Shown: positions 14,834 to 54,050 of the stretch, one piece after another
How positions within the stretch are numbered: the first letter of the stretch is position 1
Layout: every line of letters begins with the position of its first letter
NCBI GenBank assembly: GCA_050742295.1
Contig: JBOGID010000565.1
Span: 1 to 55,241, forward strand
From: Acidimicrobiales bacterium
GTDB taxonomy: Bacteria > Actinomycetota > Acidimicrobiia > Acidimicrobiales > AC-14
Reading direction: 5' to 3'
DNA: 55,241 nt
Program-made: the position numbers and the translations under genes
Notes under the pieces: generated by a model
The model's database searches: none
What the model was told of the DNA's origin: nothing
Seen by the model: the letters and a program-made list of their open reading frames with translations, nothing else

Positions 14834-17800
14834 ATGCGAGCTGGGCTCGGCAAGCTTTTCTCGTTGGTCGCAATCGTCACGTCGGCCGTCGTTTTCCTCG
14901 TTCCGCCGCCGGCGCGTGCGGCGTCGACCGTCGGAAGCTTCGAGATCGACGGCAACCTCGTCGACCCCGTGGCTGGGGAGCCCATCGACTGGGCGACGCC
15001 CCCGCCGAACCTGACCAACTTCACCGACCTCGCCGCCAGCACGTCTGACGACTCGTTCGGCGGCGGTTCCAAGGAGCTCGAGCCAGGGCAGTGGAGCTGC
15101 ACCACCAATAAGGCACCGGGCAAGGACGACATCACGGCCGGCCAGGTCGCCTTCCGCACCTTCGGCGGGAAGCAGTTCATCTACGTCGACTACACCCGGG
15201 CCGCAGCCAGCGGCGACGCCCACATCGACTACGAGTTCAACGCGTCGTCGCTCCCGAACCCCGCCTGCCCGGCCCTCCCCATGCGGACCAATGGCGACAT
15301 CGTCATCGCCTTCGACACCGAGAACGGCGGGGCCCAGATCTTCGTGCGTGCGTTCCGGTGGACGTTCACCGGGCCCGGCGTCGGCACCTTCACCGAGCTG
15401 CCCACGGGCAGCCAGGAAGTCACCTTCGACGGCGCCGTGAACATCCCGAACACGATCCCCGGCCACGTCGCTGGTGACTTCGGAGAGGCCGCCCTCAACC
15501 TGACCGACACGATCGGCTCGGTGTCGTGCGGGCAGTTCTCGAGCGTCTACATGAAGAGCCGGTCGTCGACCGCCATCAACTCCGCCCTCCAAGACCGGAC
15601 GACCACGCAGCCCGTCGCCCTCGGGGACTGCCCCAACTCGGCGCTGGCCAAGGCCGTCCGGAACGTGACGACCGGCACGGGATTCGCCACGAGCGTCAAC
15701 GCCAGCCCCGGGAACATTCTCGAGTACCGGCTCCGGTACTCGAACACGGGTGCGGCCGCCGCCACCAACGTCGTGATCACCGACACCATCGCGCCTCGGC
15801 AGACGTTCCAGTCCTGCACGAACGGCTGCGCGAACAGCAGCGGCACGCTGACCTGGACCTTCCCTTCGATCGCGGCGGGGGCGACCCAGGACGTCTTCTT
15901 CAGGGTGCTGCTCGACTCGGTCTTCCCGTCGGGCGATACGCCGATCCCCAATGTGGGTTCCGTCGACACCAGCCAGGAACCGCCCAAGTCCTCGAACACC
16001 ACGACGGTCACGGTCTCGGCCAGTGCCGTCCTCTCGTCGGTCAAGACCGTGAGCCCCACGACGGCGGCCGTCGGCGGCACGGTGACCTACACCGTCAAGG
16101 TGACGAACTCCGGCGGCGCCGACGCCACCACCAACGTGGTCGACGACTACGACCAGGCCCACATCACGGTGAGCAACATCTCCAACGGCGGCGTCGACAA
16201 CGGGAACACGATCAGCTGGGCCAACCTCGCCGTGCCGGCGGGCCAGACGGTGACGCTCACCTACTCCGGGCTGGTGAAGGGGTCCTTCTCGGGGACACCG
16301 GGGCCGAACTGCACCGACGGCCACTTCCCCGTCGTCAACACCGTCACCGTCAGCGGCGGCACCGGCAGTGAGGCAACCCTTTGCGTGAACGCGGCCCCCA
16401 TCCTGACGACGACGAAGACGGTCAGCCCGACTTCGGCCGCGGTCGGAGGATCGGTGACGTACACGGTCAAGGTGACGAACTCGGGCGCGGCCGATGCCAC
16501 GACGACCGTCACCGACGACTACGACCAGGCCCACATCGCGGTCAGTAACATCAGCAACGGCGGGTCCGACAACGGGAACGCGATCATCTGGACGGACCTC
16601 CCGGTGCCTGCCGGCCAGACGGTCACGCTCACCTACACGGGCATCGTGAAGGGGACGTTCTCCGGTCCGCCGGGCGGCGGCGGCTGCGGTTCCGGCCAGT
16701 TCCCCGTGGTGAACACGGTCACGATCACCGGTGGCACCGGGGCGAACGCAACCCTCTGCGTCAACGCGGCCCCCAACCTGACGTCCGACAAGACGGTCAA
16801 CCCGACGACGGCCACGGTCGGCCAGACGGTCGCCTACAAGATCGTCATCACCAACTCCGGCGCGGCCGACGGCACGACCACGGTCGTCGACGACTACGAC
16901 CAGGCTCACATCACGGTGAGCAACATCTCCAACGGCGGCATCAACAACGGCGACACGATCACCTGGACGAACCTGTTGGTGCCGGCAGGCCAGACCGTCA
17001 CGCTGACCTATGACGGCACAGTGAAGGGCACGTTCTCCGGTTCGCCCGGCGGGTGCGGGGCGGGTCAGTTCCCGGTCTCGAACAGCGTGACGATCACCGG
17101 CGGCGCCGGTGACAGCGCCACGTTGTGCGTCGCCGCGGCTCCGGTGCTCAGTTCCACCAAGTCCGTCAACCCGACGTCGGCCAACGTAGGCGGCAGCGTC
17201 ACGTACACGATCACCGTGACCAACTCGGGCGCGGCCGACGGCACGACGACCATTACCGATGACTACGACCAGGACCACATCACCCCGAGCAACATCTCGA
17301 ACGGCGGCAGCAGCAACGGCGACAAGATCACGTGGTCGAACGTGACGGTGGCGGCCGGCCAGTCGGTCGTCCGGACTTACACCGGCACCGTCATCGGGAC
17401 GTTCGCCGGTTCGTCCGGCGGCGGCGGGTGCGGGTCGGGGCAGTTCCCCGTGCTCAACAGCGTGACGATCACCGGGGGGACGGGCTCGAATGCGACGCTC
17501 TGCGTCAACGCCAGCCCCAACCTGACATCCGACAAGACGGTCTCCCCGACCACGGCCAGCGTCGGCCAGACGGTCGCCTACTCGGTCAAGGTCACCAACT
17601 CGGGCGCCGCGGGCGGCACGACCACGGTGGTCGACGACTACGACCAGGCCCACATCACCGTGAGCAACGTCTCCAACGGCGGCGTCGACAACGGCGACAC
17701 GATCACATGGACCGACGTGTCGGTCCCGGCGGGCCAAAACGTCACGCTCACCTACTCGGGGCTCGTGAAGGGCACGTTCTCCGGTCCTCCGGGCACCGGG

Positions 17801-20188
17801 TGCGGCGCGGGCCAGTTCCCCGTCCTCAACTCGGTCACGATCACCGGCGGTACGGGTGACTCGGCGACCCTGTGCGTGAACGCAGCCCCGTCGTTCTCGT
17901 CGGACAAGACCGTGAACCCCACGACGGCGAGCGTCGGCGGCACCGTGACCTACTCGATCAAGGTGACGAACTCGGGAGCGGCGGACGGGACCACGACGGT
18001 GGTCGACGACTACGACCAGACGCACATCTCGGTCAGCAACATCTCCAACAGCGGCGTCAACAACGGGAACACGATCACGTGGGGGAGCGTGTCCGTCCCT
18101 GCGGGCCAGACGGTGACGCTCACCTACGACGGCACGGTGATCGGGACGTTCGCCGGTCCGCCAGGAGCCGGGTGCGGGCCGGGCCAGTTCCCCGTCGTGA
18201 ACCAGGTCAGCCTCACGCCGGGCAGCGGTGACACCAACACGCTGTGCGTCAACGCCGCCCCGGCGATCACGACCGACAAGACGGTGACGCCGACGACCGC
18301 CACCCCGGGTCAGGCGGTGACGTACAAGATCGTCATCACCAACTCGGGGGACGCGGCCGGCACCACGACCGTCACCGACAACTACGACCAGGCCCACATC
18401 ACCGTCAGCAACATCACCGGCGGGGGTGTGAACAACGGCGACACGATCGTGTGGTCGAACGTCGTCGTCGGGGCAGGCCAGATGGTGACCTTCACCTATA
18501 CGGGCACCATCGGGGGCTCGTTCACGGGCACGCCGCCGGCGGGCTGCGGCCCCAACCAGTTCCCGGTCGTGAACCAGGTCACGCTGACCGTCGGAAGCGG
18601 GGACACGAACACGCTGTGCGTGAACACGTCGACCACCCTGACGGTCTCCAAGTCGGCGTGCCCGACGACGGTCGTGCCCGGCGGGCTCCTCACCTACACG
18701 ATCGCCTTCAACAACACCGGCACGATTGCGGCGACCAACGTGGTGCTCGTCGACACCATCCCGACCGGCACCGAGGTGGCCCACGCCGGAGGTGGCACGG
18801 TCAACGGCAATCAGGTGACCTGGAACGTGGGGACCGTCAACGCGGGTACGGGCGGCACGAGAACGCTCGTGGTGCTCGTCAATGCGGCCAACGGAACGGT
18901 GCTGACGAACTCGATCCAGATCTCGGCTGACAACGCGGCCACGGCAACGGCAACGGCGATGACCAGCGTCACCAATGCCGGCGCGATCACGCACGGGGCG
19001 GCCTACGGCCTCGACGTCGACCTCCTCGGCATCCCGCTCATCAACGAGCTCGGACGGGCCGCCTCGGTGGCCCCGGGCTCGCCCCAGGCGGACACCGAAC
19101 AGCTGCTCGGCGTCGGGGTCCCCCTCATCGCCACCGCGAACATCATCCGTCAGACGTCGAACTCCTCGGTGACCGACCAGGCCGTCAGCACGGCGACGTC
19201 CGAAGTCCTCGGGCTGAACCTGCTGAGCGGGGCCATCACCGCCGACGTCATCCGGGGCGTCTCGCAGTCGGTGGCGACCCCGACGGCCGCCACCTCCAAC
19301 TCCACCGGGTCGTCCTACGCCAACCTCAAGATCAACGGGAACTCGATCGGCAACGTGCCTCCGAACACGAAGGTCACCGTGAAGAACCCGCTGATCCCGA
19401 GCCAGAACCTGGCCGAGGTCGTGATCAACGAGGAGGTCAAGTCGGCGACCTTCGTCGGCGGGAAGTTCACCGCGACCCACTCGGTGAACACGCTGCGGGT
19501 CACGCTGCTCAAGGCGTTCCTCACCCTGCCCAAGGGCGCCGAAATCATCGTCGCCCACGCCAACACCGATGCCACCTACCCCTCCGGCCTGGCCTGTGGG
19601 ACGGCACCGGCGACAGTGAGCGCGAACGCGTTCATCGCCTTCGCCGAGGGCACGTTCTTCGGCACGCCGATCGTCACCACCCAGGTGGGCGACGCGTCGA
19701 TCACGCCCCTGGGCGGGAGTGACTCCGACGCGGTGGCGTCCGTCCTGCTTCCCCCGGCTGCGGTCGCGGGGGTGGCGACCGACAGCGCCAGCGGGTCGAT
19801 CAGCCCGAACCCCAACGCCCAGGCCCAAGCCCGCGTGGCGGGGGCGAGCCTCCTCAACGGGTTGATCACCGCAGACGTGCTCGACGTCCAATCCAGCAGC
19901 ACATCGAACGGGACCACGGCGAGCACGACGTTCACGACGACGTTCCTCAACGTGAAGGTCGGCACGCTCACCCTCGGCGCCGTCGTGCCGCCCAACACGA
20001 CCATCGCCGTCCCGTCGGGCGGGGGCATCATCCTGGTGATCCTGAACGAGCAGATCAGGGGCGGGAACGGCACCAAGGACACCGAGGGCACCATCAACGC
20101 CGTCCACGCCTACATCCTCAACAGCTCCAACGTCGTCACCGCCGAGCTCATCGTGGCCTCGGCCCACAGCGACGCCCACCGGCCCTGA
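14834..20188 (+). CDS. Giant secreted repeat protein (DUF11/TIGR01451-like domains + seven tandem Cys-pair repeats), putative surface adhesin
   Basis: ATG 14834 follows GGGGGGA. Signal peptide MRAGLGKLFSLVAIVTSAVVFLVPPPARA/AS. About 235-aa N-terminal domain (FEIDGNLVD...). DUF11-like units (ILEYRLRYSNTGAAAATNVVITDTI; LLTYTIAFNNTGTIAATNVVLVDTIP) plus seven tandem repeats. The ~470-aa C-terminal region has an internal duplication (LNLLSGAITADVI...EIIVAHANTDA and ASLLNGLITADVL...ELIVASAHSDA). TGA at 20186-20188. No LPXTG motif and no C-terminal TM helix. Confidence 0.85.
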   Translation: MRAGLGKLFSLVAIVTSAVVFLVPPPARAASTVGSFEIDGNLVDPVAGEPIDWATPPPNLTNFTDLAASTSDDSFGGGSKELEPGQWSCTTNKAPGKDDITAGQVAFRTFGGKQFIYVDYTRAAASGDAHIDYEFNASSLPNPACPALPMRTNGDIVIAFDTENGGAQIFVRAFRWTFTGPGVGTFTELPTGSQEVTFDGAVNIPNTIPGHVAGDFGEAALNLTDTIGSVSCGQFSSVYMKSRSSTAINSALQDRTTTQPVALGDCPNSALAKAVRNVTTGTGFATSVNASPGNILEYRLRYSNTGAAAATNVVITDTIAPRQTFQSCTNGCANSSGTLTWTFPSIAAGATQDVFFRVLLDSVFPSGDTPIPNVGSVDTSQEPPKSSNTTTVTVSASAVLSSVKTVSPTTAAVGGTVTYTVKVTNSGGADATTNVVDDYDQAHITVSNISNGGVDNGNTISWANLAVPAGQTVTLTYSGLVKGSFSGTPGPNCTDGHFPVVNTVTVSGGTGSEATLCVNAAPILTTTKTVSPTSAAVGGSVTYTVKVTNSGAADATTTVTDDYDQAHIAVSNISNGGSDNGNAIIWTDLPVPAGQTVTLTYTGIVKGTFSGPPGGGGCGSGQFPVVNTVTITGGTGANATLCVNAAPNLTSDKTVNPTTATVGQTVAYKIVITNSGAADGTTTVVDDYDQAHITVSNISNGGINNGDTITWTNLLVPAGQTVTLTYDGTVKGTFSGSPGGCGAGQFPVSNSVTITGGAGDSATLCVAAAPVLSSTKSVNPTSANVGGSVTYTITVTNSGAADGTTTITDDYDQDHITPSNISNGGSSNGDKITWSNVTVAAGQSVVRTYTGTVIGTFAGSSGGGGCGSGQFPVLNSVTITGGTGSNATLCVNASPNLTSDKTVSPTTASVGQTVAYSVKVTNSGAAGGTTTVVDDYDQAHITVSNVSNGGVDNGDTITWTDVSVPAGQNVTLTYSGLVKGTFSGPPGTGCGAGQFPVLNSVTITGGTGDSATLCVNAAPSFSSDKTVNPTTASVGGTVTYSIKVTNSGAADGTTTVVDDYDQTHISVSNISNSGVNNGNTITWGSVSVPAGQTVTLTYDGTVIGTFAGPPGAGCGPGQFPVVNQVSLTPGSGDTNTLCVNAAPAITTDKTVTPTTATPGQAVTYKIVITNSGDAAGTTTVTDNYDQAHITVSNITGGGVNNGDTIVWSNVVVGAGQMVTFTYTGTIGGSFTGTPPAGCGPNQFPVVNQVTLTVGSGDTNTLCVNTSTTLTVSKSACPTTVVPGGLLTYTIAFNNTGTIAATNVVLVDTIPTGTEVAHAGGGTVNGNQVTWNVGTVNAGTGGTRTLVVLVNAANGTVLTNSIQISADNAATATATAMTSVTNAGAITHGAAYGLDVDLLGIPLINELGRAASVAPGSPQADTEQLLGVGVPLIATANIIRQTSNSSVTDQAVSTATSEVLGLNLLSGAITADVIRGVSQSVATPTAATSNSTGSSYANLKINGNSIGNVPPNTKVTVKNPLIPSQNLAEVVINEEVKSATFVGGKFTATHSVNTLRVTLLKAFLTLPKGAEIIVAHANTDATYPSGLACGTAPATVSANAFIAFAEGTFFGTPIVTTQVGDASITPLGGSDSDAVASVLLPPAAVAGVATDSASGSISPNPNAQAQARVAGASLLNGLITADVLDVQSSSTSNGTTASTTFTTTFLNVKVGTLTLGAVVPPNTTIAVPSGGGIILVILNEQIRGGNGTKDTEGTINAVHAYILNSSNVVTAELIVASAHSDAHRP
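16025..18627 (+). repeat. Seven in-frame tandem coding repeats of 369-375 bp (123-125 aa)
   Basis: Unit starts at 16025, 16394, 16769, 17138, 17513, 17885 and 18257. Each unit contains K[TS]V.PT.A.VG..V.Y...[VI]TNSG, DDYDQAHITVSNISNGG, PAGQTVTLTY and a Cys pair (C...GQFPV.N.V....G.G...TLCV.A). Confidence 0.9.
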
Positions 20189-42523: not shown

Positions 42524-44398
42524 ATGCGCACGAAGCGGTGGATCGTCGTGGTGGTCGGGGCGGCCGTCGTCGCCCTCGTGGCCGTCGGCGCCACTCGCCT
42601 CTTACGCGACGAGCCCGAAGGACCGGCCCGGGAGGTCAACGCCTACCTGCGGGCGTGGGAACGGTTCGACGCCGGGGCCATGGCTGCCGTCGTGGTACCT
42701 CCCGAGCAGGTCGGTCCGGCCGTGACCGCCCTGAAGGAACAGCTGGCGGTCACGACCATGCGGGTCACGGCGGGGATCATCGAGCGGGACGGCGATAGCG
42801 CTCGCGTTCCCTTCACCGCCAACCTGGACCTCGCCGGCCTCGGGACCTGGCGCTATGGCGGGCGGCTGATTATGAGGCGAACGAATGACCAGTGGCGGGT
42901 GGAGTGGGCGCCGGCCGCCCTCCATCCCGACCTCAAACCCGAGCGACAGTTTGCGGTGACTCGCTCGTGGCCCGAGCGGGCGCCCATCCTCGGCGCCGAC
43001 GGTGCCTCCCTCGTCGCCGTCGGCCACGTGATGGTGGTCGGCCTGCAACCGGGCCGCATCCAGGACCAGGCCGCACTGGAGACGTCGCTCCAAGGCCTGC
43101 TCGGCATCCAACCGGCGGAGATCCGCGCCGCCCTGGCCCAGCCCTGGGTGCGGCCCGACTTCTTCGTGCCGATCGCGGAAGTCCGCCCGGAACGGTTCGG
43201 GGCGCTGCGCCCGCAGCTCGAGCCGATCCCGGGGGTGTTCTTCCAGCGCGGGCGCAGCCGGCTCGCGCCTGCGGACGGCTTTGCGGCCCACGTCGTCGGC
43301 TCGGTCAGAGAGATCACGGCCGAGCGCCTGGAGGAACTGGGGACGCCCTACGTGGTCGGCGACCGGGTCGGCTTGTCCGGCATCGAGGCGGCCCACGAGC
43401 GCCGTCTGGCGGGGACACCGTCGGGCGAGGTGCAGCTCCGCGAGTCGGACGGGCGCGTCGTCAGCATCCTCCACCGCTTCGAGGGCGCGTCGCCCCAACC
43501 CGTGCGCCTGACTCTCGATCGCGCTGTCCAGCAGGCGGCCGATCAGGCCCTCGACGGCGTCGCCCAACCGGCCGCCTTCGTGGCGATGGACGCGGGCACG
43601 GGCGAGATCCGAGCGGTCGCCAGCCGGCCGCTGAGCGAGGAGTTCAACCGGGCCCTGGCCGGTCGCTACCCCCCGGGTTCGACGTTCAAGATCGTCACGA
43701 CGGCCGCCCTTCTCTCCACCGGGCTGCGTCCCGAGGAACCGGTCGGATGCCCGGCGCAAGCCGTCGTCGGAGGCCGGACGTTCGTCAACTTCGAGAGCGG
43801 AGCCCTGGGCTCGGTCCCGTTCGCCACGGCCTTTGCGCAGTCGTGCAACACCGCGTTCGTCAGCCTCTCGACCCGGCTGTCGGGCGGCTCGCTGGTCCAG
43901 GCGGCAGCAGGGTTCGGGTTCGGGAGTTCGTACGAAGTCGGGCTCCCGGTGGCGGGAGGACAGTTCCTACACCCCGGGGACGCCACCGAACTGGCCGCCG
44001 CCGCCATCGGGCAGGGTCGAGTGGTGGCGAGCCCGGTCCAGATGGCATCGGTGGCGGCGGCCGTGTCGTCGGGGAGCTGGCGTTCGCCCCGCCTCCTCGC
44101 CGACGCGCCACCAGGCGAGGTGAAGCAGTTGGACGCTTCAGTCGCCGCCACGCTCCGCCAGCTCATGACCGCGGTCGTGCGGGAGGGGACGGCAGCGGCG
44201 GTGGCGCACGCCGGGCAGGAGATCGCCGGCAAGACGGGGACGGCCGAGTTCGGAGGCGGGGACCCTCCCCCCACCCACGCTTGGTTTGTGGGCTACCGCG
44301 GCGCGTTGGCGTTCGCCGTGGTGGTGGCAGGCGGAGGCGTCGGCGGTCGCGTGGCGGCGCCGCTCGCGGCCCGCTTCCTCGACGCCGCTCCCCGCTGA
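42524..44398 (+). CDS. Penicillin-binding protein (transpeptidase) with NTF2-like MecA_N-type N-terminal domain
   Basis: N-terminal TM anchor and NTF2-like EVNAYLRAWERFDAGAM. Active-site motifs STFK (SxxK), SCN (SxN) and KTGTAE (KTG). Confidence 0.9.
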   Translation: MRTKRWIVVVVGAAVVALVAVGATRLLRDEPEGPAREVNAYLRAWERFDAGAMAAVVVPPEQVGPAVTALKEQLAVTTMRVTAGIIERDGDSARVPFTANLDLAGLGTWRYGGRLIMRRTNDQWRVEWAPAALHPDLKPERQFAVTRSWPERAPILGADGASLVAVGHVMVVGLQPGRIQDQAALETSLQGLLGIQPAEIRAALAQPWVRPDFFVPIAEVRPERFGALRPQLEPIPGVFFQRGRSRLAPADGFAAHVVGSVREITAERLEELGTPYVVGDRVGLSGIEAAHERRLAGTPSGEVQLRESDGRVVSILHRFEGASPQPVRLTLDRAVQQAADQALDGVAQPAAFVAMDAGTGEIRAVASRPLSEEFNRALAGRYPPGSTFKIVTTAALLSTGLRPEEPVGCPAQAVVGGRTFVNFESGALGSVPFATAFAQSCNTAFVSLSTRLSGGSLVQAAAGFGFGSSYEVGLPVAGGQFLHPGDATELAAAAIGQGRVVASPVQMASVAAAVSSGSWRSPRLLADAPPGEVKQLDASVAATLRQLMTAVVREGTAAAVAHAGQEIAGKTGTAEFGGGDPPPTHAWFVGYRGALAFAVVVAGGGVGGRVAAPLAARFLDAAPR

Positions 44399-44423
44399 CG
44401 GAGCGACGGCATAGGTGCGCATC

Positions 44424-44700
44424 AGGTCAGCTTGCCCGTGGCGTGGGGGCGAAGGGCCTGGGCTGAGCCGGTGCCCCGCAGGTGGATGGCGATGATCAGG
44501 CTGGTGACGGCGGCCCACGCGCACCACAGGGAGACGAACCCCCGAAGCGTGAGCCAGCCCAGCCAACACGCCGACCACGTTCACAACCCCGAACACGACG
44601 ATGAACCGGTGGCTCGACGCAAGGAAGCAGCCGAGGGTGGCCGTTCCGTGGCGACCACGCCGAGCCAGCTCTCGGGCGCAGCGATGTGGCGGACGAGGTC
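44424..44700 (-). pseudogene. Possible small multi-TM protein, frameshifted (weak call)
   Basis: Hydrophobic stretches WLGVVAT.., HRFIVVFGVVNVVGVLAG and LTLRGFVSLWCAWAAVTSLIIAIHL follow each other on the minus strand in three frames. TGA at 44424-44426. Confidence 0.25.
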
Positions 44701-44961
44701 GAGATCAGCGCCCAGTTCGCCGACTGTAGGCGCCGCGAACGCAACGCCGGTGTCGCCGGAGGCCCGTGCCTTACGGTCGTGCGGGAGCGGGATCGTCGAC
44801 CACCTCATGCGAGTGGCCGATGCGGTCGCCTCGGCCCGAAGACCGGCGGGACGTGCTGCTCCTGTGCCGCGCGTTCGGGTTGGACCTACCGCAGGAGTAC
44901 CTCCCGGCCGCGTCCGACTGAGTCCATACGACGGGGCGGGCCGCGCCGTACACCTTGCGCC

Positions 44962-45609
44962 ATGGCCGGACTTCTCCGATACACGGGTGTCGCCGCGGTC
45001 ACCGCCGTCTGGACACTTCTGCTCACGGCCACGGCCCGGAGCGGGTTCGACCTTTTCGGGGAACAGCCGCTCAGCTACCTCGGCACGCAGGCGCCGTCAG
45101 CGGTTCTGTTCACCGTCGGGCTGGCGGTCCCCGCGCTACTCTTCGGGGCCTTCCACCAGTACGTGAGACGCGAGTTCCCGGTGTCGTCGTACTTCTCCGT
45201 GGCGATGCTGTCCGGCCTGGCAGGTCAGATGGTTGCGGCGTTCGTTCCCATCGGTGGCGACGCCATCGCCCATCGCGTCCACACGATCAGCGCACTGGTC
45301 CTGGGTGCCTCGCTGCCATTGCTCATGTGGCGCTTCGCCGCCGGCCAGGCCCCGGGGCCGTTTCGCCGGCTCAGTTATGCATTGTTCTGGGTTGAGGTCG
45401 CGGCCTGCGCGGTCGGCCTCTACCTGTCGGCTCGAAGCGTCGCGCCCGTCGCAGAGATCCTGCCCGGAGCCGCGTTCCACGCGTGGGTCCTCACCGTCAC
45501 GTGCGCCGTACCCTCGGTTGTTCGCGACCCTGGTCGCGGAAGAGGGCTCGTGGGCGTTCCTGTCGCCGCATCGCTCGCCGCCCGCAGCCTCGGTGCCCCT
45601 TCTCGCTGA
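44962..45609 (+). CDS. Integral membrane protein, DUF998-like
   Basis: ATG 44962. Six predicted TM helices and a ...QPLSYLGTQAPSAVLFTVGLAV... segment resembling the DUF998 ISxLG region. Confidence 0.5.
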   Translation: MAGLLRYTGVAAVTAVWTLLLTATARSGFDLFGEQPLSYLGTQAPSAVLFTVGLAVPALLFGAFHQYVRREFPVSSYFSVAMLSGLAGQMVAAFVPIGGDAIAHRVHTISALVLGASLPLLMWRFAAGQAPGPFRRLSYALFWVEVAACAVGLYLSARSVAPVAEILPGAAFHAWVLTVTCAVPSVVRDPGRGRGLVGVPVAASLAARSLGAPSR

Positions 45610-45655
45610 CGGGCGTGGCGACTCGGTCAGGTGCGCCGCGGCGCCCGTTTGTCGG

Positions 45656-46581
45656 TCAGGGCTTGGCGCCGGCCGGAGTCCCGTTGGCGTGATCGAGTCC
45701 CGGCGGGTTCGGCGAGTTGCCCTTCCCCGATTCCGGTCCTCGGGTCGGGTCCGCCGCCTCGGCCCCGCCCGGTGTCCCGTTGGTGTGGTCGGGCCCCGGT
45801 GGGCTCCCTGCCTTTCCGCTCGCCTGCCCCGATTGCGGCGCGGGACCCTCGGTCTCGCCGTCGGCCGGCGTCACGCCTGAGGCGCCGTTGCCGTTCCCCT
45901 CACCCGACTGCGGCGCGGCGCTCTCGGTGTCGGCGCCCGCCGGCGTCCCATCCGTGGCGCCGTGAGCCGCAAGCTCCCGGCGTCGCCGTTCCCCTGCCCC
46001 GGTCCCGGACTGCCGCGTCGACGTGCGGGGTCCGATGGCGCGTCCGCAGCCTCGTTGGCCGGGGTCCGGTTGGAGTCGTCAAGGCCCCGGGCGGACTCCC
46101 CGAATTGACGTTCGCCTGGCCCCCGGACGGCGCGGGGTGCACGGCCTCACCATTTCCCGGTCCTGGCGGCTCCCTGTGTTGGCGTCCCCGAGCGGCGAGC
46201 CCGCTCGCGCCGGGTCCGCACTCTGGCCACCGGCCGGCGGCGGCGGCAGCGACGCCGAGCCCCAGACCGAGCTTGGCTGCCAGCCCCAGCGCCGCGAGCC
46301 TGGCCGGAAGCTCGGTCGAGCGCTGGCCGCCCCCTGTTTCCTCGCCGACGAGCTAGATGGCTGGTCGGACGTGGGCGACGAGCCGGCGGCAAGCAGCGTG
46401 GCGAGAGCCGTTCGGACCACCGGCGCGGGCCTGGTGGCGATGGCACCGAGGTCTTCGACGAACGGGGCGAGCCACTCGAACGCCGACGTTGGCGACAGCG
46501 CCCATCCAAGAGGGCCTCGAGCGTTCGATCGTCGAGGGTCTCAACAGCCATGTCGTGAATGTCACCGTCGAAGTCGGTCAT
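45656..46581 (-). pseudogene. Anti-sigma-factor-like membrane protein with Pro/Gly-rich repetitive C-terminus; several frame switches
   Basis: ATG 46581 overlaps the sigma-factor stop (ATGA): MTDFDGDIHDMAVETLDDRTLEALLDGR. A TM helix (LAALGLAAKLGLGLGVAAAAAG) and repeats such as SPNPPGLDHANGTPAG / SPPGPDHTNGTPGG lie in other frames. Confidence 0.45.
45660..46140. repeat. Degenerate tandem repeat, period ~96 bp (about 5 copies)
   Basis: GTTGG(c/t)GTG(a/g)TCG(a/g)G(t/c)CCCGG(c/t)GGG occurs near 45683 and 45779, and a related GTTGGAGTCGTCAAGGCCCCGGGCGG near 46068 (offset about 3 x 96 bp). Weaker copies lie between them. Confidence 0.5.
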
Positions 46582-47173
46582 TGCGATACCGGGTCCAGGT
46601 CGAGTGCGTTCCGGAGGTTGGCCAGCCCCCGACGCTGCAGCGCCTTGACGGCGGTGGCCGACGTGCCCAACGCCTCGGCGATGGCCTCGATGGTGAGGCC
46701 GGCCATGAGGCGCACGAGGAGCACATCGCGCTGGTCGGCGGGCAACCTCTCGCAGAGGGTCCGCACGCGCTCGTCGCTCAAGCTCTGGAGGGCGTCGTCC
46801 TCGCTGTTGTTCCCGACGGTGCGGAGCAGAGCGCGGTCGTCGCCGACCTCACACGGTCGAGGGTCCCTTCGCCGCCGATCGTCCACGAGTCGGGAATGGG
46901 CGACGGTGCAGATCCAGGTCTGAGGCTCGGAACTTGTCCTCGTTGCCCGTAAAACGACCCGATCCGGGTCAGGACTCCCAGGAACACCTCGTTGGCGAGG
47001 TCATCGGGGTCGGAGGCTCCTTGGACCCGGAGGTACCCGGCCACAGGGGGCGCCATGGCTTGATACAGCCGCTCGAGGGCCCAAGCCGCCCCGGCCTGGG
47101 CGGCGCACAGCAGGTCGTCGAAGCCAGGCCCAACCCGGCCCGGGCGGGCAACGGAGCCCCGACGACCCGTCAC
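46578..47173 (-). pseudogene. ECF (sigma-70 family group 4) sigma factor with one frame switch
   Basis: Region 2 (FDDLLCAAQAGAAWALERLYQAMAPPVAGYLRV...DDLANEVFLGVL) in ORF 46778-47281. Region 4.2 (LPADQRDVLLVRLMAGLTIEAIAEALGTSATAVKALQRRGLANLRNAL) in ORF 46578-46886. The switch is near 46890. The start is approximate. Confidence 0.7.
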
Positions 47174-47490
47174 GTGTCGCTCGACGGTCTCGACCCCATC
47201 GCACGCGAGCGCGGCCCACAACCTGGGCACCGGACGACGCAGGGTGGCAGGCACCCCGTCATGCCGAAACGCCCGGCGCAACCTCCAAGACGCCGCCCCA
47301 GGCGCACCACCTGGGGACTCCTACCCGAGTTGTTACCACCTCGTGGACGTGCCCGAACGCGAGGATGTCCGCACCCGTATCCCTTTCGGCGCCTCAAGAC
47401 GGTCACCAAGGTGATGGACGATCCGTCCCTCCGTCGAGCCCGAGGCGAAGCCGTGTCGGGCTCACGTCTCCTCCGCCAAACCCAGGTCCG

Positions 47491-47713
47491 ATGACCCTTC
47501 GCACGGAGGATGAGAGATCCGGCGGTGACGATCTCTTGACGATCAGCGACGCCGCCGCAGTGTTCGGTCTCTCTCCGCGGACTCATCGTCCGGTGGGTGC
47601 CGGACGGACGGATTCGCAGCGCCACGGTTGAGGACCAGAAGCTGGTTTGGCGTTCCGACCTGGAAGCCATAGTGAGCCGGCGGCCCGACAAGAACCACGG
47701 CGGCACTGAGTAA
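47491..47713 (+). CDS. Excisionase/MerR-type helix-turn-helix protein, one apparent frameshift
   Basis: ATG 47491. LLTISDAAAVFGLSPRT then (next frame, switch near 47585) IVRWVPDGRIRSATVEDQKLVWRSDLEAIV...NHGGTE, with TAA at 47711-47713. Confidence 0.55.
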
Positions 47714-47756
47714 CCACGGCGGCACTGAGCAACCACGGCGGCACTGAGTAACCACG
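47693..47756. repeat. 19-bp tandem direct repeat, 3.4 copies
   Basis: AACCACGGCGGCACTGAGT (47693-47711), AACCACGGCGGCACTGAGC (47712-47730), AACCACGGCGGCACTGAGT (47731-47749), then AACCACG. The first copy holds the last six codons and the stop of the HTH gene. Confidence 0.9.
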
Positions 47757-47919
47757 CCCGCTCGCCCATGCCGAGGTACTGACGGCCGCCGAACTGGCCG
47801 AGCAGCTGAAGCATTTCGACACGGCAACGCCGTTCTTCCGTTTCGGACCACCCGAGCGCTAACCGCGGCTGGGGCTGGCGGTTGGCTGGCCGTTGGCGAT
47901 TCAGGGAGCGATCGCCCGA

Positions 47920-47959
47920 GCCGGCCGGCGGAGAACCTTCCGGGAAGCCGCCGGCCGGC
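47920..47959. terminator. GC-rich hairpin between the convergent HTH and hydrogenase-like genes
   Basis: GCCGGCCGGCGG (47920-47931) pairs with CCGCCGGCCGGC (47948-47959). On the plus strand it is followed by GTTTGGG. Confidence 0.5.
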
Positions 47960-48000
47960 GTTTGGGCGAGGGGGGGGAACGATCGACCCCAACGCGATCC

Positions 48001-49881
48001 CTATTCGAGCGAGCAGCCGCAGGAGTTGACGTCGCGGACGATCACGCTGCGACCGGTGTCCATGTGCGTTGTGCACGGCATGCACGGGTCGAGGCTCCGC
48101 ACCGCACGGAGGACGTCGATCCCCTTGATCTGGTCCTCGGGGACGGTCTCCAGCAAGGGCGTGCCCACGACCACCTCCTCATAGGGCCCAAGCTGGCCGA
48201 AGGGGTCCGTCGGCGACGCGTTCATCGTCGACGGGGTGGTGATCTGGTAGTTCACGAGCTTGCCGTTGTCGATCTCGTTGTGATGCACGAGCCACCCGCG
48301 GCCGGCCTCCCAGAACCCCACCCCGATGCGGTGGTCCTTGGGGATCCTGAAGGGGGAATGCAGCTTGGTCTCACCCTGTCGCCAGTACTCGAACGACTGG
48401 AGCAGGCAGTTGATGCCGATCGTGGCCTGCCAGCCGACGGCGTAGGCCCGGGCCCGGTTCCGCTCGAGGGCGTTCAGGGTCCTAGGGATGGCCCAGAACA
48501 GTTCGGTCTCGGGAAGCGCATGGCGAGGCAGCAGCATGCGGATGCCGTCCCCGGTGGCCTCGTAGAAGGGGTTCTCGGGGTGCTTCTGGGCCAGGGCCGT
48601 CGTCCACATGCGGCCGTACACCCCCGTCTCCACGACCTTGCGATCCCATCGAAGCGAGGTGTCCCAGGTGTACTTCTCGCGGAAGTTCGTCGCGCTTGGC
48701 TTGGGGATCGTCGTCTTGTTCCAGGGGTGGTAGGGCGACAGGGCGTTCCCCAACGGGTCGGTCTGATGCTTCTGTGGCCCGCTCTGGGTCCAGTCCTCGT
48801 AGAAGGAGTGCTCGACGAACTCCTCGGTGCCGATGTTGATGTCGTGCAGGTTCGTCGTGACGAGCTTGCCGTCGATGACGATGCCGGGGGTGGACCACCT
48901 GGCGTTGCCCCACTGGTTGGCATTGCCGTACGACGCGTCGTAGACGTCGGACTTGTCAAAGATCCCGGTCTGCGCCAGGTTGACCTGGCGGGCCCCGACC
49001 TGCTCGTAGTCCGGATTGGCCTCGTAGAGGAAGTCGACGAGGTCGTCCCAGATGCGGGGCAGGACCTTGGCGAAGTCAACGATCTTGCCCAGCTGGGCGT
49101 AGTACTCGTTGAACGACGACGTGGTGATGGTTGTCGACACGCCGCCCGGGACCAGCGTCGACGGGTGGGGGTACTTGCCGTACATCAGCTGGCACATGAT
49201 CCGCCCCACCCGCGTCCACTCGAGAGCCTCGAGGTAGATCTTGCCGCTGAGGGGGTTCATGGCGTCCATGATGTCTTTGACCGTCGCGTAGCCGTGGATG
49301 TCGGCGTTGGGGGCGAGGGTCTTCTCGGCCCGGGTGACCAGCTCAGGGTTGGTGACCGAGATGAGCGAGGTGGAGTAGTCCGGCCCGGCCAGGAGGCCGA
49401 GGTGCAGCGGGTTGTCGTAGAACATCTCCGCGACCTCACCCAGGTTCCGGACCTCGACGCCGAGGGGCGGCGGCACGATCCCGAACGTCTGCTCCAGGCC
49501 CAAGGCGGACACGGTTGCGTGCACACCACCGCACACACCGCAGGCCCTCGACGAGATGTCGATGGCGTCGCGGGGGTCACGGCCCTGGAGGATGATCTCG
49601 TAGCCCCGGAACAGCATGGCCCGCGAGTGGCACTCGACGGCCTTGCGGTTTTCGAGGTCCAGCACGGTGTGGATGGCGAGGGCGCCGGCCACGCGGGTCA
49701 TGGGGTCGATCGACCACTCCCGCAGGCGGGGCGGGGCGGCCACCTGGGCCCCCGGACCGGGTCGGCGGCGGACGTAGCCCTTGCGCTCCGCCCCCTGGAC
49801 GGCCCACGGGTCTGCGGTCCCCTCGCGCAGCCTGGCCGTTCCCGACGCGTCGAACTCAATGGGTAGGTTCTTGAAGCACAT
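48001..49881 (-). CDS. [NiFe]-hydrogenase large-subunit homologue (divergent, no adjacent small subunit)
   Basis: GGGGAGA precedes ATG 49881. N-terminal metal motif RACGVCGGVH (49519-49548) and C-terminal DPCMPCTTH (48064-48090), followed by a 20-aa tail. The length (626 aa) is typical of large subunits. Confidence 0.85.
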   Translation of the reverse strand: MCFKNLPIEFDASGTARLREGTADPWAVQGAERKGYVRRRPGPGAQVAAPPRLREWSIDPMTRVAGALAIHTVLDLENRKAVECHSRAMLFRGYEIILQGRDPRDAIDISSRACGVCGGVHATVSALGLEQTFGIVPPPLGVEVRNLGEVAEMFYDNPLHLGLLAGPDYSTSLISVTNPELVTRAEKTLAPNADIHGYATVKDIMDAMNPLSGKIYLEALEWTRVGRIMCQLMYGKYPHPSTLVPGGVSTTITTSSFNEYYAQLGKIVDFAKVLPRIWDDLVDFLYEANPDYEQVGARQVNLAQTGIFDKSDVYDASYGNANQWGNARWSTPGIVIDGKLVTTNLHDINIGTEEFVEHSFYEDWTQSGPQKHQTDPLGNALSPYHPWNKTTIPKPSATNFREKYTWDTSLRWDRKVVETGVYGRMWTTALAQKHPENPFYEATGDGIRMLLPRHALPETELFWAIPRTLNALERNRARAYAVGWQATIGINCLLQSFEYWRQGETKLHSPFRIPKDHRIGVGFWEAGRGWLVHHNEIDNGKLVNYQITTPSTMNASPTDPFGQLGPYEEVVVGTPLLETVPEDQIKGIDVLRAVRSLDPCMPCTTHMDTGRSVIVRDVNSCGCSLE

Positions 49882-50021
49882 ATGCGTCTCCCCGTTGTGT
49901 GAATCAGGGGGGTCCCGTCGAGCCGACGTCGAACCGTGCCGCCTTCAGCGACGAGCAACCGGCTCGTCCAGCCTCAGGCGAGGCCTCCCAACACCCACAT
50001 TCTACCCCGCCTGTAGATGTT

Positions 50022-50041
50022 TTTCACACTTATCTGTGAAA
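50022..50041. promoter_or_regulatory. Perfect AT-rich palindrome TTTCACA-N6-TGTGAAA upstream of the hydrogenase-like gene
   Basis: TTTCACACTTATCTGTGAAA lies in the 167-bp spacer, 8 nt beyond the cyclase stop and about 140 nt upstream of ATG 49881. It is the most AT-rich patch in this part of the window. Confidence 0.5.
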
Positions 50042-50048
50042 CGTCTCC

Positions 50049-51199
50049 CTACGCTCCCTGCGCGCCGTGCCGTGCGTCAACAAGCCTGATGGCGGGGGTC
50101 GGGCGCTGGAAGCCGGCAAGCGTGATGTCGCCGAGCATCTCCACGTCGAAGGCGTCCTCGATGGAGGCGCAGAGGCGCTGGGCGATCAGGATCTGGCCCG
50201 GACCTGCCTGTTCGGCGAGGCGGCCCGCCAGGTTCACCACCGATCCGATGGGCGTGTACTCGTAACGACCTTCGAACCCCGACATACCGAGGGTGGCGTA
50301 CCCCGAGGCCACCCCCATGCCGACGTCGAGCTTGTACCCCAGCGATTGCCAGTGGGCCGTGGGCTCGACCATGGCTCCGCGTAGGGCGAGGGCCATCCCC
50401 GCCACCCGGGCCTCGGGGTCGTCGCAAGGAACCGGGTCGTTGAGGTACGCCAGCACGCTGTCGCCGGCTAGGTAGCCGACGGCGGCGCCGAACAGCCGGA
50501 GCACCTCTCCCAGGGCCTCGTAGAAGCTGCCCAGGACACCGAGCAGCTCCTCGGGCTCCGCGGCCTCGATGAACGTGGAGAACCCGTGCAGCTTGCACAG
50601 GCACACCGCGATGAACCTGCGGTGGGGCTTGAGGAAGGCGTCGTCGCCCGACGACAGGACGAGATCGGCCACCTGGTCGGAGAGGAACCGCCGGAGCCGG
50701 CCGAGCCGCTCGATCTCGTCGACCTGATCGGCGACCCGGCGCTCCAGGTCGCGGTTCCAGGCCGCCAGCTCGACCCGCTGGTCCTGGATCAGATCGTGGT
50801 ACCGCTTGATGCGCAGCAACGAGCGGATACGAGCCAGGAACTCGCCGCGGTCGAAGGGCTTCACGAGGAAGTCGTCGGCCCCTGCGTCGAGGGCCGACAG
50901 CTTCTCGTCCGGCCCTTCGGCCGTGATCATGACCACGGGCAGCGCCTGCGTCTCGGGGACGGCGCGGATGCGCCGGCAGACCTCGTAGCCGTCCATGGCC
51001 GGCATGCGGATGTCCAGCAGGACGATGTCGAAGCACTCCTGGGCCAGCAGGTCGAGGGCCCGGCGCCCGTCCTCGGCCAGGGTCGTGCAGTGACCCTCCT
51101 GCTCGAGCATGTGGGAGAGGATGCGGCGGCTCACGGAGTCGTCGTCGACTACGAGCACCGACGCGCCCGGCACCGGGCCGCCGGCCGGTGCCGGTGCCG

Positions 51200-51203
<4 letters not shown>
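50049..51203 (-). CDS. Response-regulator receiver + class III nucleotide cyclase domain (metal-site variant)
   Basis: ATG 51203 overlaps the upstream TGA (ATGA). REC motifs (VLVVDDD, IVLLDIRMPAMDG, VVMITA, LVKPF), a coiled-coil linker and a cyclase domain (AVCLCKLHGFSTF, AGDSVLAYLNDP, EGRYEYTPIGSVVNLAGRL). TAG at 50049-50051. Confidence 0.85.

Positions 51204-54050
<2,847 letters not shown>

What the first reader, a model, noticed from the sequence alone, without database searches (positions are those of the whole stretch)
48001..49881. Orphan, divergent [NiFe]-hydrogenase large-subunit homologue with an altered proton-gate motif
The 626-aa ORF keeps both pairs of Ni-Fe-ligating cysteines: RACGVCGGVH at 49519-49548 and DPCMPCTTH at 48064-48090. 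It also has a 20-aa C-terminal tail, the kind normally removed by a maturation protease. Three things are atypical. (1) The near-universal N-terminal R-[IV]-E-G-H motif reads IDPMTRVAGA (RVAGA at 49681-49695). The Glu of that motif is the residue identified as the proton-transfer gate in the Desulfovibrio fructosovorans enzyme (Glu25). Here both that Glu and the following His are Ala. (2) About 60 extra residues precede the motif (MCFKNLPIEFDASG...). (3) No Fe-S small-subunit gene, hyp gene or endopeptidase gene lies anywhere in the 55 kb, although small and large subunit genes are normally adjacent. The tail also ends in an unusual extra Cys pair (NSCGCSLE). Together this points to a non-canonical, possibly sensory or non-redox, hydrogenase-like protein.
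Basis: partly seen in the sequence, partly recalled or inferred. Interest (0 to 1): 0.8.

Follow-up and report, generated by a model that had tools for sequence, protein, structure and literature searches.

The report
Solitary extra hydrogenase catalytic-subunit gene
This is an intact, selectively maintained extra copy of the catalytic subunit of an air-tolerant hydrogen-oxidising enzyme from a soil Acidimicrobiales bacterium; its odd-looking motifs are normal for its lineage, and the only real oddity is that it sits alone, as do many sister copies in related genomes.

Summary
They do not mark a divergent protein. The MCFKNLPIEFD N-terminus, RVAGA in place of RIEGH, the SRACGVCGGVH and DPCMPCTTH motifs, and the NSCGC tail are conserved in more than 70 Acidimicrobiia homologues. 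That includes 49 copies lying directly after a small-subunit gene, with HypC/D/E/F and protease genes nearby. The closest solved structure is the group 1h enzyme of C. necator (5AA5, 44% identity), which also lacks the Glu (RIVGS).

The solitary state is real. No small-subunit, hyp or protease gene lies in the 55 kb, and the nearest orthologues (86-91% identity) are also solitary, in several different neighbourhoods. Related genomes carry one canonical operon plus one to three solitary copies. Solitary copies keep 247-255 of the 255 invariant family positions (dN/dS about 0.11) and show mosaic gene conversion with the operon copy. Orphan small subunits are rare (1 of 70).

Best reading: an alternative catalytic subunit matured and partnered in trans. 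A small-subunit-independent sensor role is not excluded. One paralogue class is coupled to a protease-like/PP2C phosphatase fusion.

The parts
48001..49881 (-). Solitary hhyL-like gene: 626-aa [NiFe]-hydrogenase large-subunit paralogue of the Acidimicrobiia group-1h-type clade, stop codon included
   Evidence: ORF. Pfam NiFeSe_Hases E 2.7e-63. 5AA5_C E 2.4e-150. GC3 0.92-0.93. dN/dS about 0.11 against orphan orthologues.
49849..49881 (-). Conserved N-terminal peptide MCFKNLPIEFD (residues 1-11), the start of a roughly 32-37 residue extension relative to HofG and Hyd-1
   Evidence: C2 F3 K4 N5 L6 P7 F10 are invariant in 44 homologues. Present in small-subunit-linked copies and in Cys-less distant relatives.
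49681..49695 (-). RVAGA (residues 63-67), the position of R-[IV]-E-G-H in most [NiFe] hydrogenases
   Evidence: Aligns to RIEGH of Hyd-1 and to RIVGS of 5AA5. Invariant across the family.
49519..49548 (-). L1 motif RACGVCGGVH (residues 112-121) carrying the first two Ni-Fe cysteines
48064..48090 (-). L2 motif DPCMPCTTH (residues 598-606) carrying the last two Ni-Fe cysteines
48004..48063 (-). 20-residue C-terminal extension MDTGRSVIVRDVNSCGCSLE, the presumed endopeptidase-removed tail with a family-wide C-x-C
   Evidence: 5AA5 chains end at the aligned His. Three of the eight deviations of the window copy from family-invariant columns fall here.
49888..49893 (-). Shine-Dalgarno-like GGGGAG, 6 nt before the ATG
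   Evidence: Sequence read.
49999..50027 (-). Promoter-like site (GTGAAA, 17 nt spacer, TAGAAT) in the 167-nt gap upstream. Suggests the gene has its own transcription start.
   Evidence: This is a consensus match only.
47250..48000 (.). About 750 nt downstream with no convincing coding signal on the gene's strand. No protease, hyp or small-subunit gene follows.
   Evidence: GC3 frame plot. tblastn negative.

Best explanation
Shown: the ORF is an intact, independently placed paralogue of the catalytic large subunit (HhyL-like) of the Acidimicrobiia branch of the group-1h-type (actinobacterial, O2-insensitive uptake) [NiFe]-hydrogenases. Its unusual motifs are traits of that whole branch.

Inferred mechanism:
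1. The precursor receives the NiFe(CN)2CO cofactor from HypABCDEF proteins encoded elsewhere in the genome.
2. Its 20-residue tail is cut after His606 by the family's endopeptidase.
3. The mature protein pairs with the single HhyS iron-sulfur small subunit encoded in the canonical hhyS-hhyL operon.
4. This gives an alternative isoform of the H2-oxidising enzyme, expressed from its own promoter under separate control.

Proton transfer cannot use the classical Glu. It must use whatever route group 1h enzymes use.
For: Family membership:
- Pfam NiFeSe_Hases.
- 5AA5 is the best match by sequence (E 2.4e-150, 44% identity) and by fold (TM 0.69/0.77 against about 0.5 for all others).

Lineage traits: the N-terminus, RVAGA, L1, L2 and the CGC tail are identical in 49 copies that directly follow a small-subunit gene (Oxidored_q6 + NiFe_hyd_SSU_C). 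HycI-type protease, NifU-like, HypC, HypD, HypE and HypF genes lie nearby at those loci.

Constraint on solitary copies:
- They differ at only 0-8 of the 255 columns that are invariant in small-subunit-linked copies, apart from one outlier (L054, 17 changes clustered at 359-393, possibly a sequence error). The window copy has 8 changes, all conservative.
- dN/dS is about 0.11 between the window copy and its solitary orthologues.
- GC3 is 0.93.

Partners in trans:
- Six MAGs (SMAG_U1870, SD8030, SMAG_U13592, SMAG_U13564, SMAG_U15509, AVDCRST_MAG10) hold one small-subunit-linked copy plus one to three solitary copies.
- Orphan small subunits are rare: 69 of 70 HhyS genes with room downstream are followed by HhyL. 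Solitary large subunits therefore have no private small subunit.

Co-evolution with the operon copy: within-genome paralogues show mosaic identity, with 96-99% windows next to 66-80% windows. Identical runs are 71-129 nt, against 33-36 nt between genomes. They also cluster by genome rather than by context.

Own expression signals: a Shine-Dalgarno sequence and a promoter-like site.
Against: - No direct evidence that the window's own genome has hhyS or hyp genes; only 55 kb is available.
- No expression or biochemical data.
- An operon-encoded small subunit is presumably made 1:1 with its own large subunit, so it is unclear where free HhyS for extra large subunits would come from.
- Gene conversion from the operon copy could by itself keep solitary copies looking constrained.
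- One paralogue class is translationally coupled to a protease-like/PP2C phosphatase fusion. That looks more like signalling than catalysis.
- The small-subunit interface could not be examined, because the tools give no coordinates.
Confidence: 0.55

Rival explanations
1. Small-subunit-independent sensor. The solitary large subunit binds the Ni-Fe cofactor and acts alone as an H2 (or redox/O2) sensing module. Its state is read by a partner protein: a protease-like/PP2C phosphatase fusion in the sister paralogue class, and an unknown partner or the neighbouring two-component/cyclase genes in this window.
For: - In 15 related loci a solitary copy is followed by a gene fusing a hydrogenase-protease-like domain to a SpoIIE/PP2C phosphatase, and preceded by a divergent HTH_3-cupin regulator. 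In the two loci with called genes (L001, L002) that gene starts 4 nt inside the hydrogenase gene.
- In the window the gene lies 167 nt downstream of, and co-directional with, receiver-cyclase, V4R/XylR_N hybrid kinase-Hpt and receiver-cyclase genes.
- Isolated large subunits of other [NiFe] hydrogenases can activate H2 (PMC8159394, found).
- Large subunits outnumber small subunits.
Against: - The window gene has no protease-PP2C or HTH-cupin neighbour.
- Its nearest orthologues sit in other, unrelated neighbourhoods, so the signalling neighbours here are not conserved.
- There is no sensor-specific sequence change. Solitary and operon copies are nearly identical at invariant positions.
- The C-terminal extension, which I recall the known regulatory hydrogenases lack, is kept.
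Confidence: 0.2
2. Evolutionary by-product. The solitary copies are dispersed duplicates with little or no function of their own. They are kept intact mainly by recurrent gene conversion from the operon copy, or are too young to have decayed.
For: - Mosaic identity tracts between within-genome paralogues.
- Solitary copies occur in many unrelated contexts.
- An excisionase-like HTH_17 remnant and a tandem repeat lie just downstream in the window.
- The window copy has slightly more changes at invariant positions (8) than any small-subunit-linked copy in the leave-one-out control (mean 0.9, maximum 7).
Against: - All 27 solitary copies examined are full-length and intact.
- dS between paralogues is 0.25-0.54, so the duplicates are old, yet dN/dS stays at 0.07-0.29.
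- Specific solitary arrangements are conserved across several MAGs: BNR-H-methyltransferase in L003/L004/L008/L083, and HTH-cupin-H-PP2C in 15 loci.
- Codon usage is that of a well-adapted gene.
Confidence: 0.12
3. One reading: loss of the Glu/His of the R-x-E-G-H motif has turned this particular protein into a non-redox or catalytically crippled hydrogenase-like protein.
For: Glu and His are indeed both Ala at the aligned position.
Against: - The same RVAGA is invariant in all small-subunit-linked operon copies.
- The solved group 1h enzyme 5AA5 has RIVGS.
- All four metal cysteines and 247 of 255 invariant positions are kept.
- Truly non-catalytic relatives look different: they have lost the cysteines.
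Confidence: 0.03

Closest known systems
Group 1h (formerly group 5, 'actinobacterial-type') [NiFe]-hydrogenase large subunit: HofG of Cupriavidus necator H16 (PDB 5AA5); HhyL of Mycobacterium smegmatis (MSMEG_2719)
   Same: - Best sequence match (E 2.4e-150, 44% identity over 560 columns) and best fold match (TM 0.77).
- All four metal cysteines are present.
- No Glu in the N-terminal motif (RIVGS against RVAGA).
- A C-terminal extension follows the His.
- Sister copies sit next to a Tat-less-looking small subunit with NifU-like, protease and hyp genes.
- One homologue is annotated by its source as 'large subunit MSMEG_2719'.
   Different: - L1 and L2 read SSRACGVCGGVH and SLDPCMPCTTH, against TSRICGICGDNH and SFDPCLPCGVH in 5AA5 and P0124.
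- About 32 extra N-terminal residues with an invariant Cys2.
- A C-x-C at the end of the tail.
- This copy has no adjacent small-subunit or accessory genes.
Group 1l [NiFe]-hydrogenase (HylL/HylS of Hymenobacter roseosalivarius)
   Same: An aerobic, soil, high-affinity type related to 1h and modelled on 5AA5. Large- and small-subunit genes are not adjacent in that group (bioRxiv 10.1101/2020.08.06.239558).
   Different: - Group 1l shares less than 40% identity with 1h and has large insertions.
- Candidate 1l-like representatives (P0144, P0151, P0165) keep RIEGH and are 641-709 aa.
- In 1l the two structural genes are separated by five small membrane-protein genes within one cluster. They are not dispersed as solitary copies.
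Regulatory (H2-sensing) hydrogenases, groups 2b/2c (HoxBC/HupUV)
   Same: A [NiFe] large subunit used for signalling rather than energy. This would be the functional analogue if the sensor reading is right.
   Different: - Those sensors, as I recall, keep a small subunit, lack the C-terminal extension, and signal through a histidine kinase or cyclic-di-GMP enzymes.
- Group 2 structures match far more weakly here (7UTD, E 1.9e-27).
Isolated large subunits studied in vitro (HoxC of the regulatory hydrogenase, HoxG of the membrane-bound hydrogenase of C. necator)
   Same: They show that a large subunit alone can hold the cofactor and activate H2 at low rates (PMC8159394 and PMC9886862, found).
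   Different: Those are laboratory preparations of subunits whose genes lie next to small-subunit genes. No natural solitary large-subunit gene family was found in the literature searches.

Membership tests
[NiFe]-hydrogenase large subunit (Pfam PF00374) | Profile match above the curated cut-off | tested here: met
   215.1 bits against a cut-off of 25.8.
[NiFe]-hydrogenase large subunit (Pfam PF00374) | Two CxxC pairs: RxCGxCxxxH near the N-terminus and DPCxxCxxH near the C-terminus | tested here: met
   RACGVCGGVH (112-121) and DPCMPCTTH (598-606).
[NiFe]-hydrogenase large subunit (Pfam PF00374) | Carries the NiFe(CN)2CO cofactor and is processed at the C-terminus | not testable with these tools
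   A 20-aa extension is present and 5AA5 chains end at the aligned His. Cleavage and metal content need biochemistry.
Group 1h [NiFe]-hydrogenase (Hhy / actinobacterial type) | Closest to characterised 1h enzymes in sequence and fold | tested here: met
   5AA5 scores 505 bits against at most 154 bits for any other PDB hydrogenase. TM 0.77 against at most 0.63. 44-45% identity to HofG and P0124.
Group 1h [NiFe]-hydrogenase (Hhy / actinobacterial type) | 1h-type L1/L2 signatures as seen in 5AA5 and P0124 (TSRICGICGDNH; SFDPCLPCGVH) | tested here: inconclusive
   The motifs differ at several non-cysteine positions (SSRACGVCGGVH; SLDPCMPCTTH). HydDB-style classification was not available. I therefore call the clade 1h-type or 1h-related, not a proven 1h member.
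Group 1h [NiFe]-hydrogenase (Hhy / actinobacterial type) | Large-subunit gene directly follows the hhyS small-subunit gene | tested here: not met
   No small-subunit gene in the 55 kb. Met for 49 sister copies. This gene is a paralogue outside the operon.
Group 1h [NiFe]-hydrogenase (Hhy / actinobacterial type) | Clustered endopeptidase, NifU-like and hyp maturation genes | tested here: not met
   None in the window. Present at small-subunit-linked loci of the family.
Group 1l [NiFe]-hydrogenase (Hyl) | Less than 40% identity to 1h, large insertions, five small membrane-protein genes between the structural genes | tested here: not met
   44% identity to 5AA5 in a single ungapped-like stretch. 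No such genes adjacent. Criteria taken.
Regulatory hydrogenase (groups 2b/2c) | Group 2 affiliation; large subunit without a C-terminal extension; adjacent small subunit and signalling partner | tested here: not met
   Group 2 structures match only weakly (E about 1e-27). The extension is present. No small subunit. The signalling neighbours are not conserved in orthologues.

The most novel reading that the evidence does not exclude
Soil Acidimicrobiales have recruited solitary copies of their high-affinity hydrogenase catalytic subunit as small-subunit-independent H2 or redox sensors. One class signals through a fused hydrogenase-protease-like/PP2C phosphatase and an HTH-cupin regulator. Others, such as the window gene, signal through as yet unknown partners, perhaps the adjacent receiver-cyclase/hybrid-kinase genes. 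This would be a new way for aerobic bacteria to sense H2 and a natural 'minimal hydrogenase'.
Probability: 0.15. Interest if true: 0.85.

Novelty: new variant of a known kind. Interest (0 to 1): 0.45.

Why it matters
1. It corrects a tempting misreading. The missing Glu 'proton gate' is a normal trait of group-1h-type enzymes and of this whole Acidimicrobiia clade, not a sign of a non-redox protein.

2. The large-subunit gene is the standard marker for counting atmospheric-H2 oxidisers in soil metagenomes. If Acidimicrobiales carry two to four copies per genome with only one small subunit, marker-based abundance estimates for this abundant soil and desert class are inflated.

3. Conserved, selected, solitary catalytic subunits raise a testable question: are [NiFe] hydrogenases built from exchangeable catalytic isoforms, or can the large subunit work alone, for example as a sensor? 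How the high-affinity hydrogenases are regulated is, to my knowledge, still unresolved. The protease-like/PP2C-linked paralogues give a concrete entry point.

Tried and rejected
- Synteny: I searched for synteny between the window flanks and the flanks of the closest relatives (blastn and blastx). The only match is a homologous hybrid kinase about 6 kb from the gene in L056. The signalling neighbourhood is not conserved.
- Hidden genes: I looked for a protease, PP2C or small-subunit remnant downstream of the gene. There is none.
- Rfam: a scan of 44000-51000 gave only chance-level hits.
- Structure: the AlphaFold model from a shallow 44-sequence alignment was mediocre (pLDDT 65.9) and low-confidence exactly around the metal motifs. 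It served only for a fold match. The tools return no coordinates, so the small-subunit interface could not be mapped.
- Naming distant representatives: cluster look-up of P0122-P0133 returned no organism or group names, so the 1h/1l placement rests on identity, motifs and PDB matches.
- Literature: searches for solitary hhyL paralogues, hydrogenase-PP2C links and natural stand-alone large subunits found nothing relevant.
- The window protein itself is not on record in the gene-position index.
- Pseudogene rejected: the ORF is intact, GC3 is 0.93 and dN/dS is 0.11.
- Group 1l and group 2 sensor rejected: see the membership tests.
Full report
**1. The observation**

The window has about 70% G+C. 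The minus-strand ORF 48001-49881 encodes 626 aa and has the codon signature of a real gene, with GC3 of 0.92-0.93.
- RACGVCGGVH at 49519-49548.
- DPCMPCTTH at 48064-48090.
- RVAGA at 49681-49695.
- A 20-residue tail after His606.

Pfam gives NiFeSe_Hases at E 2.7e-63. In HMMER alignments to solved structures, RVAGA lines up with RIEGH of E. coli Hyd-1, so the Glu/His to Ala/Ala statement is correct. tblastn of family-specific HhyS, HypC/D/E/F and two protease types against all 55 kb finds nothing. A GGGGAG Shine-Dalgarno sequence lies 6 nt before the ATG. A promoter-like site lies in the 167-nt upstream gap. About 750 nt downstream carry no coding signal on the gene's strand.

**2. The 'atypical' motifs are lineage traits**

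The best solved relative is the group 1h 'actinobacterial-type' hydrogenase of C. necator, 5AA5 chain C:
- E 2.4e-150, against 1e-44 or weaker for every other hydrogenase.
- 248 of 560 aligned positions identical, 44%.
- Best fold match, TM 0.69/0.77 against about 0.5 for the rest. The AlphaFold model behind this is only moderate, with pLDDT 65.9.

That active enzyme reads DPITRIVGS at the motif, so it also lacks the Glu and His.

A search of 5.8 billion proteins returns more than 100 homologues of 73-91% identity. Nearly all are exactly 626 aa, from Acidimicrobiales/Acidimicrobiia MAGs. A scan of one genome per species finds at least 568 relatives. I aligned 78 full-length copies from those loci. 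The MCFKNLPIEFD N-terminus, RVAGA, SRACGVCGG[VT]H, DPCMPCTTH and the tail ending NSC[GS]C[TS]LE are essentially invariant.

**3. The family includes ordinary operon-encoded hydrogenases**

I called genes in 79 genomic loci and clustered the neighbours. In 49 loci the gene directly follows a 430-aa protein with Oxidored_q6 + NiFe_hyd_SSU_C, which is the small subunit. Nearby at those loci lie a HycI-type endopeptidase, a second weakly HycI-like gene, a NifU-like gene, HypC, HypD, HypE, HypF and a CooC/ParA-like ATPase.

These small-subunit-linked copies carry the same motifs as the window gene. The motifs therefore say nothing about a non-redox role. Candidate group 1l-like representatives (P0144, P0151, P0165) keep RIEGH and have large insertions. 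Published criteria put 1l at less than 40% identity to 1h. I place the clade as 1h-type or 1h-related. Its L1/L2 signatures differ from 5AA5 and P0124 at non-cysteine positions, and no formal HydDB classification was possible.

**4. The orphan state is real, conserved and widespread**

The nearest orthologues of the window gene are all solitary and sit in different neighbourhoods:

| Locus | Identity to window gene | Neighbourhood |
|---|---|---|
| L082 | 91% | HTH_20 regulator upstream; YajQ, M23 and M48 peptidases downstream |
| L083, also L003/L004/L008 | 89% | BNR protein - gene - O-methyltransferase |
| L084 | 86% | PRK and NTP-transferase upstream |

The window's own neighbours are receiver-cyclase, a V4R/XylR_N hybrid kinase with REC-REC-Hpt, and a second receiver-cyclase. 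None of these orthologues shares them. An 80% relative (P0009) is again small subunit + large subunit.

A second solitary class, 15 loci, has a fixed architecture. A divergent HTH_3-cupin regulator lies upstream. A gene downstream has an N-terminal ~140 aa homologous to the protease-like gene that follows hhyL in operons, and a C-terminal SpoIIE/PP2C phosphatase domain. In the two loci with called genes (L001, L002) that downstream gene starts 4 nt inside the hydrogenase gene.

Individual MAGs combine the types:
- SMAG_U1870 has a small-subunit-linked copy (L006), an HTH-cupin-linked copy (L007) and an orthologue of the window gene (L008).
- SD8030, SMAG_U13592, SMAG_U13564, SMAG_U15509 and AVDCRST_MAG10 likewise hold one small-subunit-linked copy plus one to three solitary ones.

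The converse is rare. Of 80 metagenomic loci found with the family's small subunit, 69 have the large subunit directly downstream, 10 run out of sequence, and only one (L128) lacks it. Large subunits therefore outnumber small subunits in this lineage.

**5. Are solitary copies functional?**

- All 27 examined are full-length.
- Of the 255 alignment columns invariant in the 49 small-subunit-linked copies, solitary copies differ at 0-8. The one exception, L054, has 17 changes clustered at 359-393, possibly a sequence error. The window copy has 8: P380A, P410L, M490I, A570V, S579T, G612S, E617D and T624S, three of them in the tail. A leave-one-out control on the linked copies gives a mean of 0.9 and a maximum of 7.
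- dN/dS between the window gene and its solitary orthologues is 0.11. Between within-genome paralogues it is 0.13-0.28 (0.07-0.29 over all 19 pairs compared), with dS of 0.25-0.54, so the duplicates are old.
- In a neighbour-joining tree the copies cluster by genome or lineage rather than by context.
- Within-genome pairs show mosaic nucleotide identity. Windows of 96-99% lie next to windows of 66-80%, with identical runs of 71-129 nt against 33-36 nt between genomes. This indicates gene conversion between operon and solitary copies.

**6. Mechanism**

The evidence best fits an alternative catalytic subunit. It would be matured by Hyp proteins and an endopeptidase encoded elsewhere, and it would pair with the one HhyS. 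This rests on three points:
- Full conservation of the catalytic and structural positions.
- No private small subunit.
- Concerted evolution with the operon copy, as expected if both must fit the same partners.

Those steps are inferred, not shown. Two caveats apply. Gene conversion can mimic constraint. And the source of spare HhyS for extra large subunits is unexplained.

The main rival is a stand-alone sensor. The PP2C-coupled class, and published work showing that isolated large subunits can activate H2 (PMC8159394), make this plausible. For the window gene specifically there is no conserved signalling partner.

A functionless duplicate is unlikely, given the age, intactness and conserved arrangements of the copies.

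**7. Novelty**

The protein is a new member of a known enzyme type. The dispersed, selected, solitary large-subunit paralogues, and the protease-like/PP2C coupling, did not turn up in seven full-text literature searches. I rate the finding a new variant of a known kind, of moderate interest. The practical consequence is for hhyL-based counts of H2 oxidisers in soil surveys.

Noticed in passing
Related loci: L001 8800-13077, L002 8700-13344; also L014, L016, L017, L019, L026, L028, L029, L032, L035, L039: A conserved three-gene module. A divergent regulator (weak MEDS-like N-terminus, HTH_3, cupin) sits upstream of a solitary hhyL paralogue. The next gene fuses a hydrogenase-protease-like domain (about 140 aa, homologous to the gene that follows hhyL in operons) to a SpoIIE/PP2C phosphatase; in L001 and L002, which have called genes, it starts 4 nt inside hhyL. 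Possible signalling use of a hydrogenase subunit.
   Followed up: partly
L167 7096-14358 (same arrangement in L168): Distant relatives that have lost all four metal cysteines (SRTRGLSSGAH and SRNSGSASAAH, both ending ...IRSFDP) but keep the (V/I)FKNLPIE(I/L)D N-terminus. Two such genes lie in tandem after a 282-aa small-subunit-like gene and before an 866-aa multi-PAS protein. This looks like a hydrogenase-derived complex without Ni-Fe.
   Followed up: partly
window about 52295-52310, within overlapping ORFs 52107-54050 and 51200-52534, minus strand: The hybrid histidine kinase (XylR_N/V4R-HisKA-HATPase_c-REC-REC-Hpt) is split between two frames inside its first receiver domain. This is an apparent frameshift, either a pseudogene or an assembly indel.
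   Followed up: partly
window 46578-47281, minus strand: An ECF-type sigma factor appears split between two overlapping frames: a region-2-like part in 46778-47281 and region 4 in 46578-46886. This is a second apparent frameshift within a few kb.
   Followed up: partly
window about 47480-47710, plus strand: A small excisionase/MerR-like HTH_17 gene convergent with the hydrogenase gene. It gives a clean Pfam match (E 7e-9) only after removing one base near 47570, a third apparent frameshift. It may be a remnant of a mobile element beside the solitary gene.
   Followed up: partly
window 47693-47761: A tandem repeat of a 19-nt unit (AACCACGGCGGCACTGAGT, about 3.6 copies) starting at the end of the excisionase-like ORF.
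   Followed up: no
window 14834-20188, plus strand: A 1784-aa protein with nine DUF11 repeats plus DUF7927, DUF7507, DUF7619 and CARDB-like domains, and unusually low first-codon-position G+C (0.54). Probably a large repetitive surface protein.
   Followed up: no
L013/L035, L031/L039, L010/L015/L018, L002 (two copies), L019 (two copies): Within-genome hhyL paralogues have patchwork nucleotide identity, with 96-99% tracts beside 66-80% tracts. They group by genome rather than by gene context, which indicates gene conversion.
   Followed up: partly
L128 3963-5147: The only small-subunit gene among 70 informative metagenomic loci with no large-subunit gene in the 1.5 kb downstream.
   Followed up: no
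Small-subunit-linked loci, e.g. L055 16-19 kb, L061 about 7.9-8.3 kb, L074 about 16.9 kb: Several 85-96-aa predicted single-helix membrane proteins (ORF clusters c12, c19, c21, c22) recur beside the Acidimicrobiia hhyS-hhyL loci. They are reminiscent of the HylTM genes described for group 1l.
   Followed up: no
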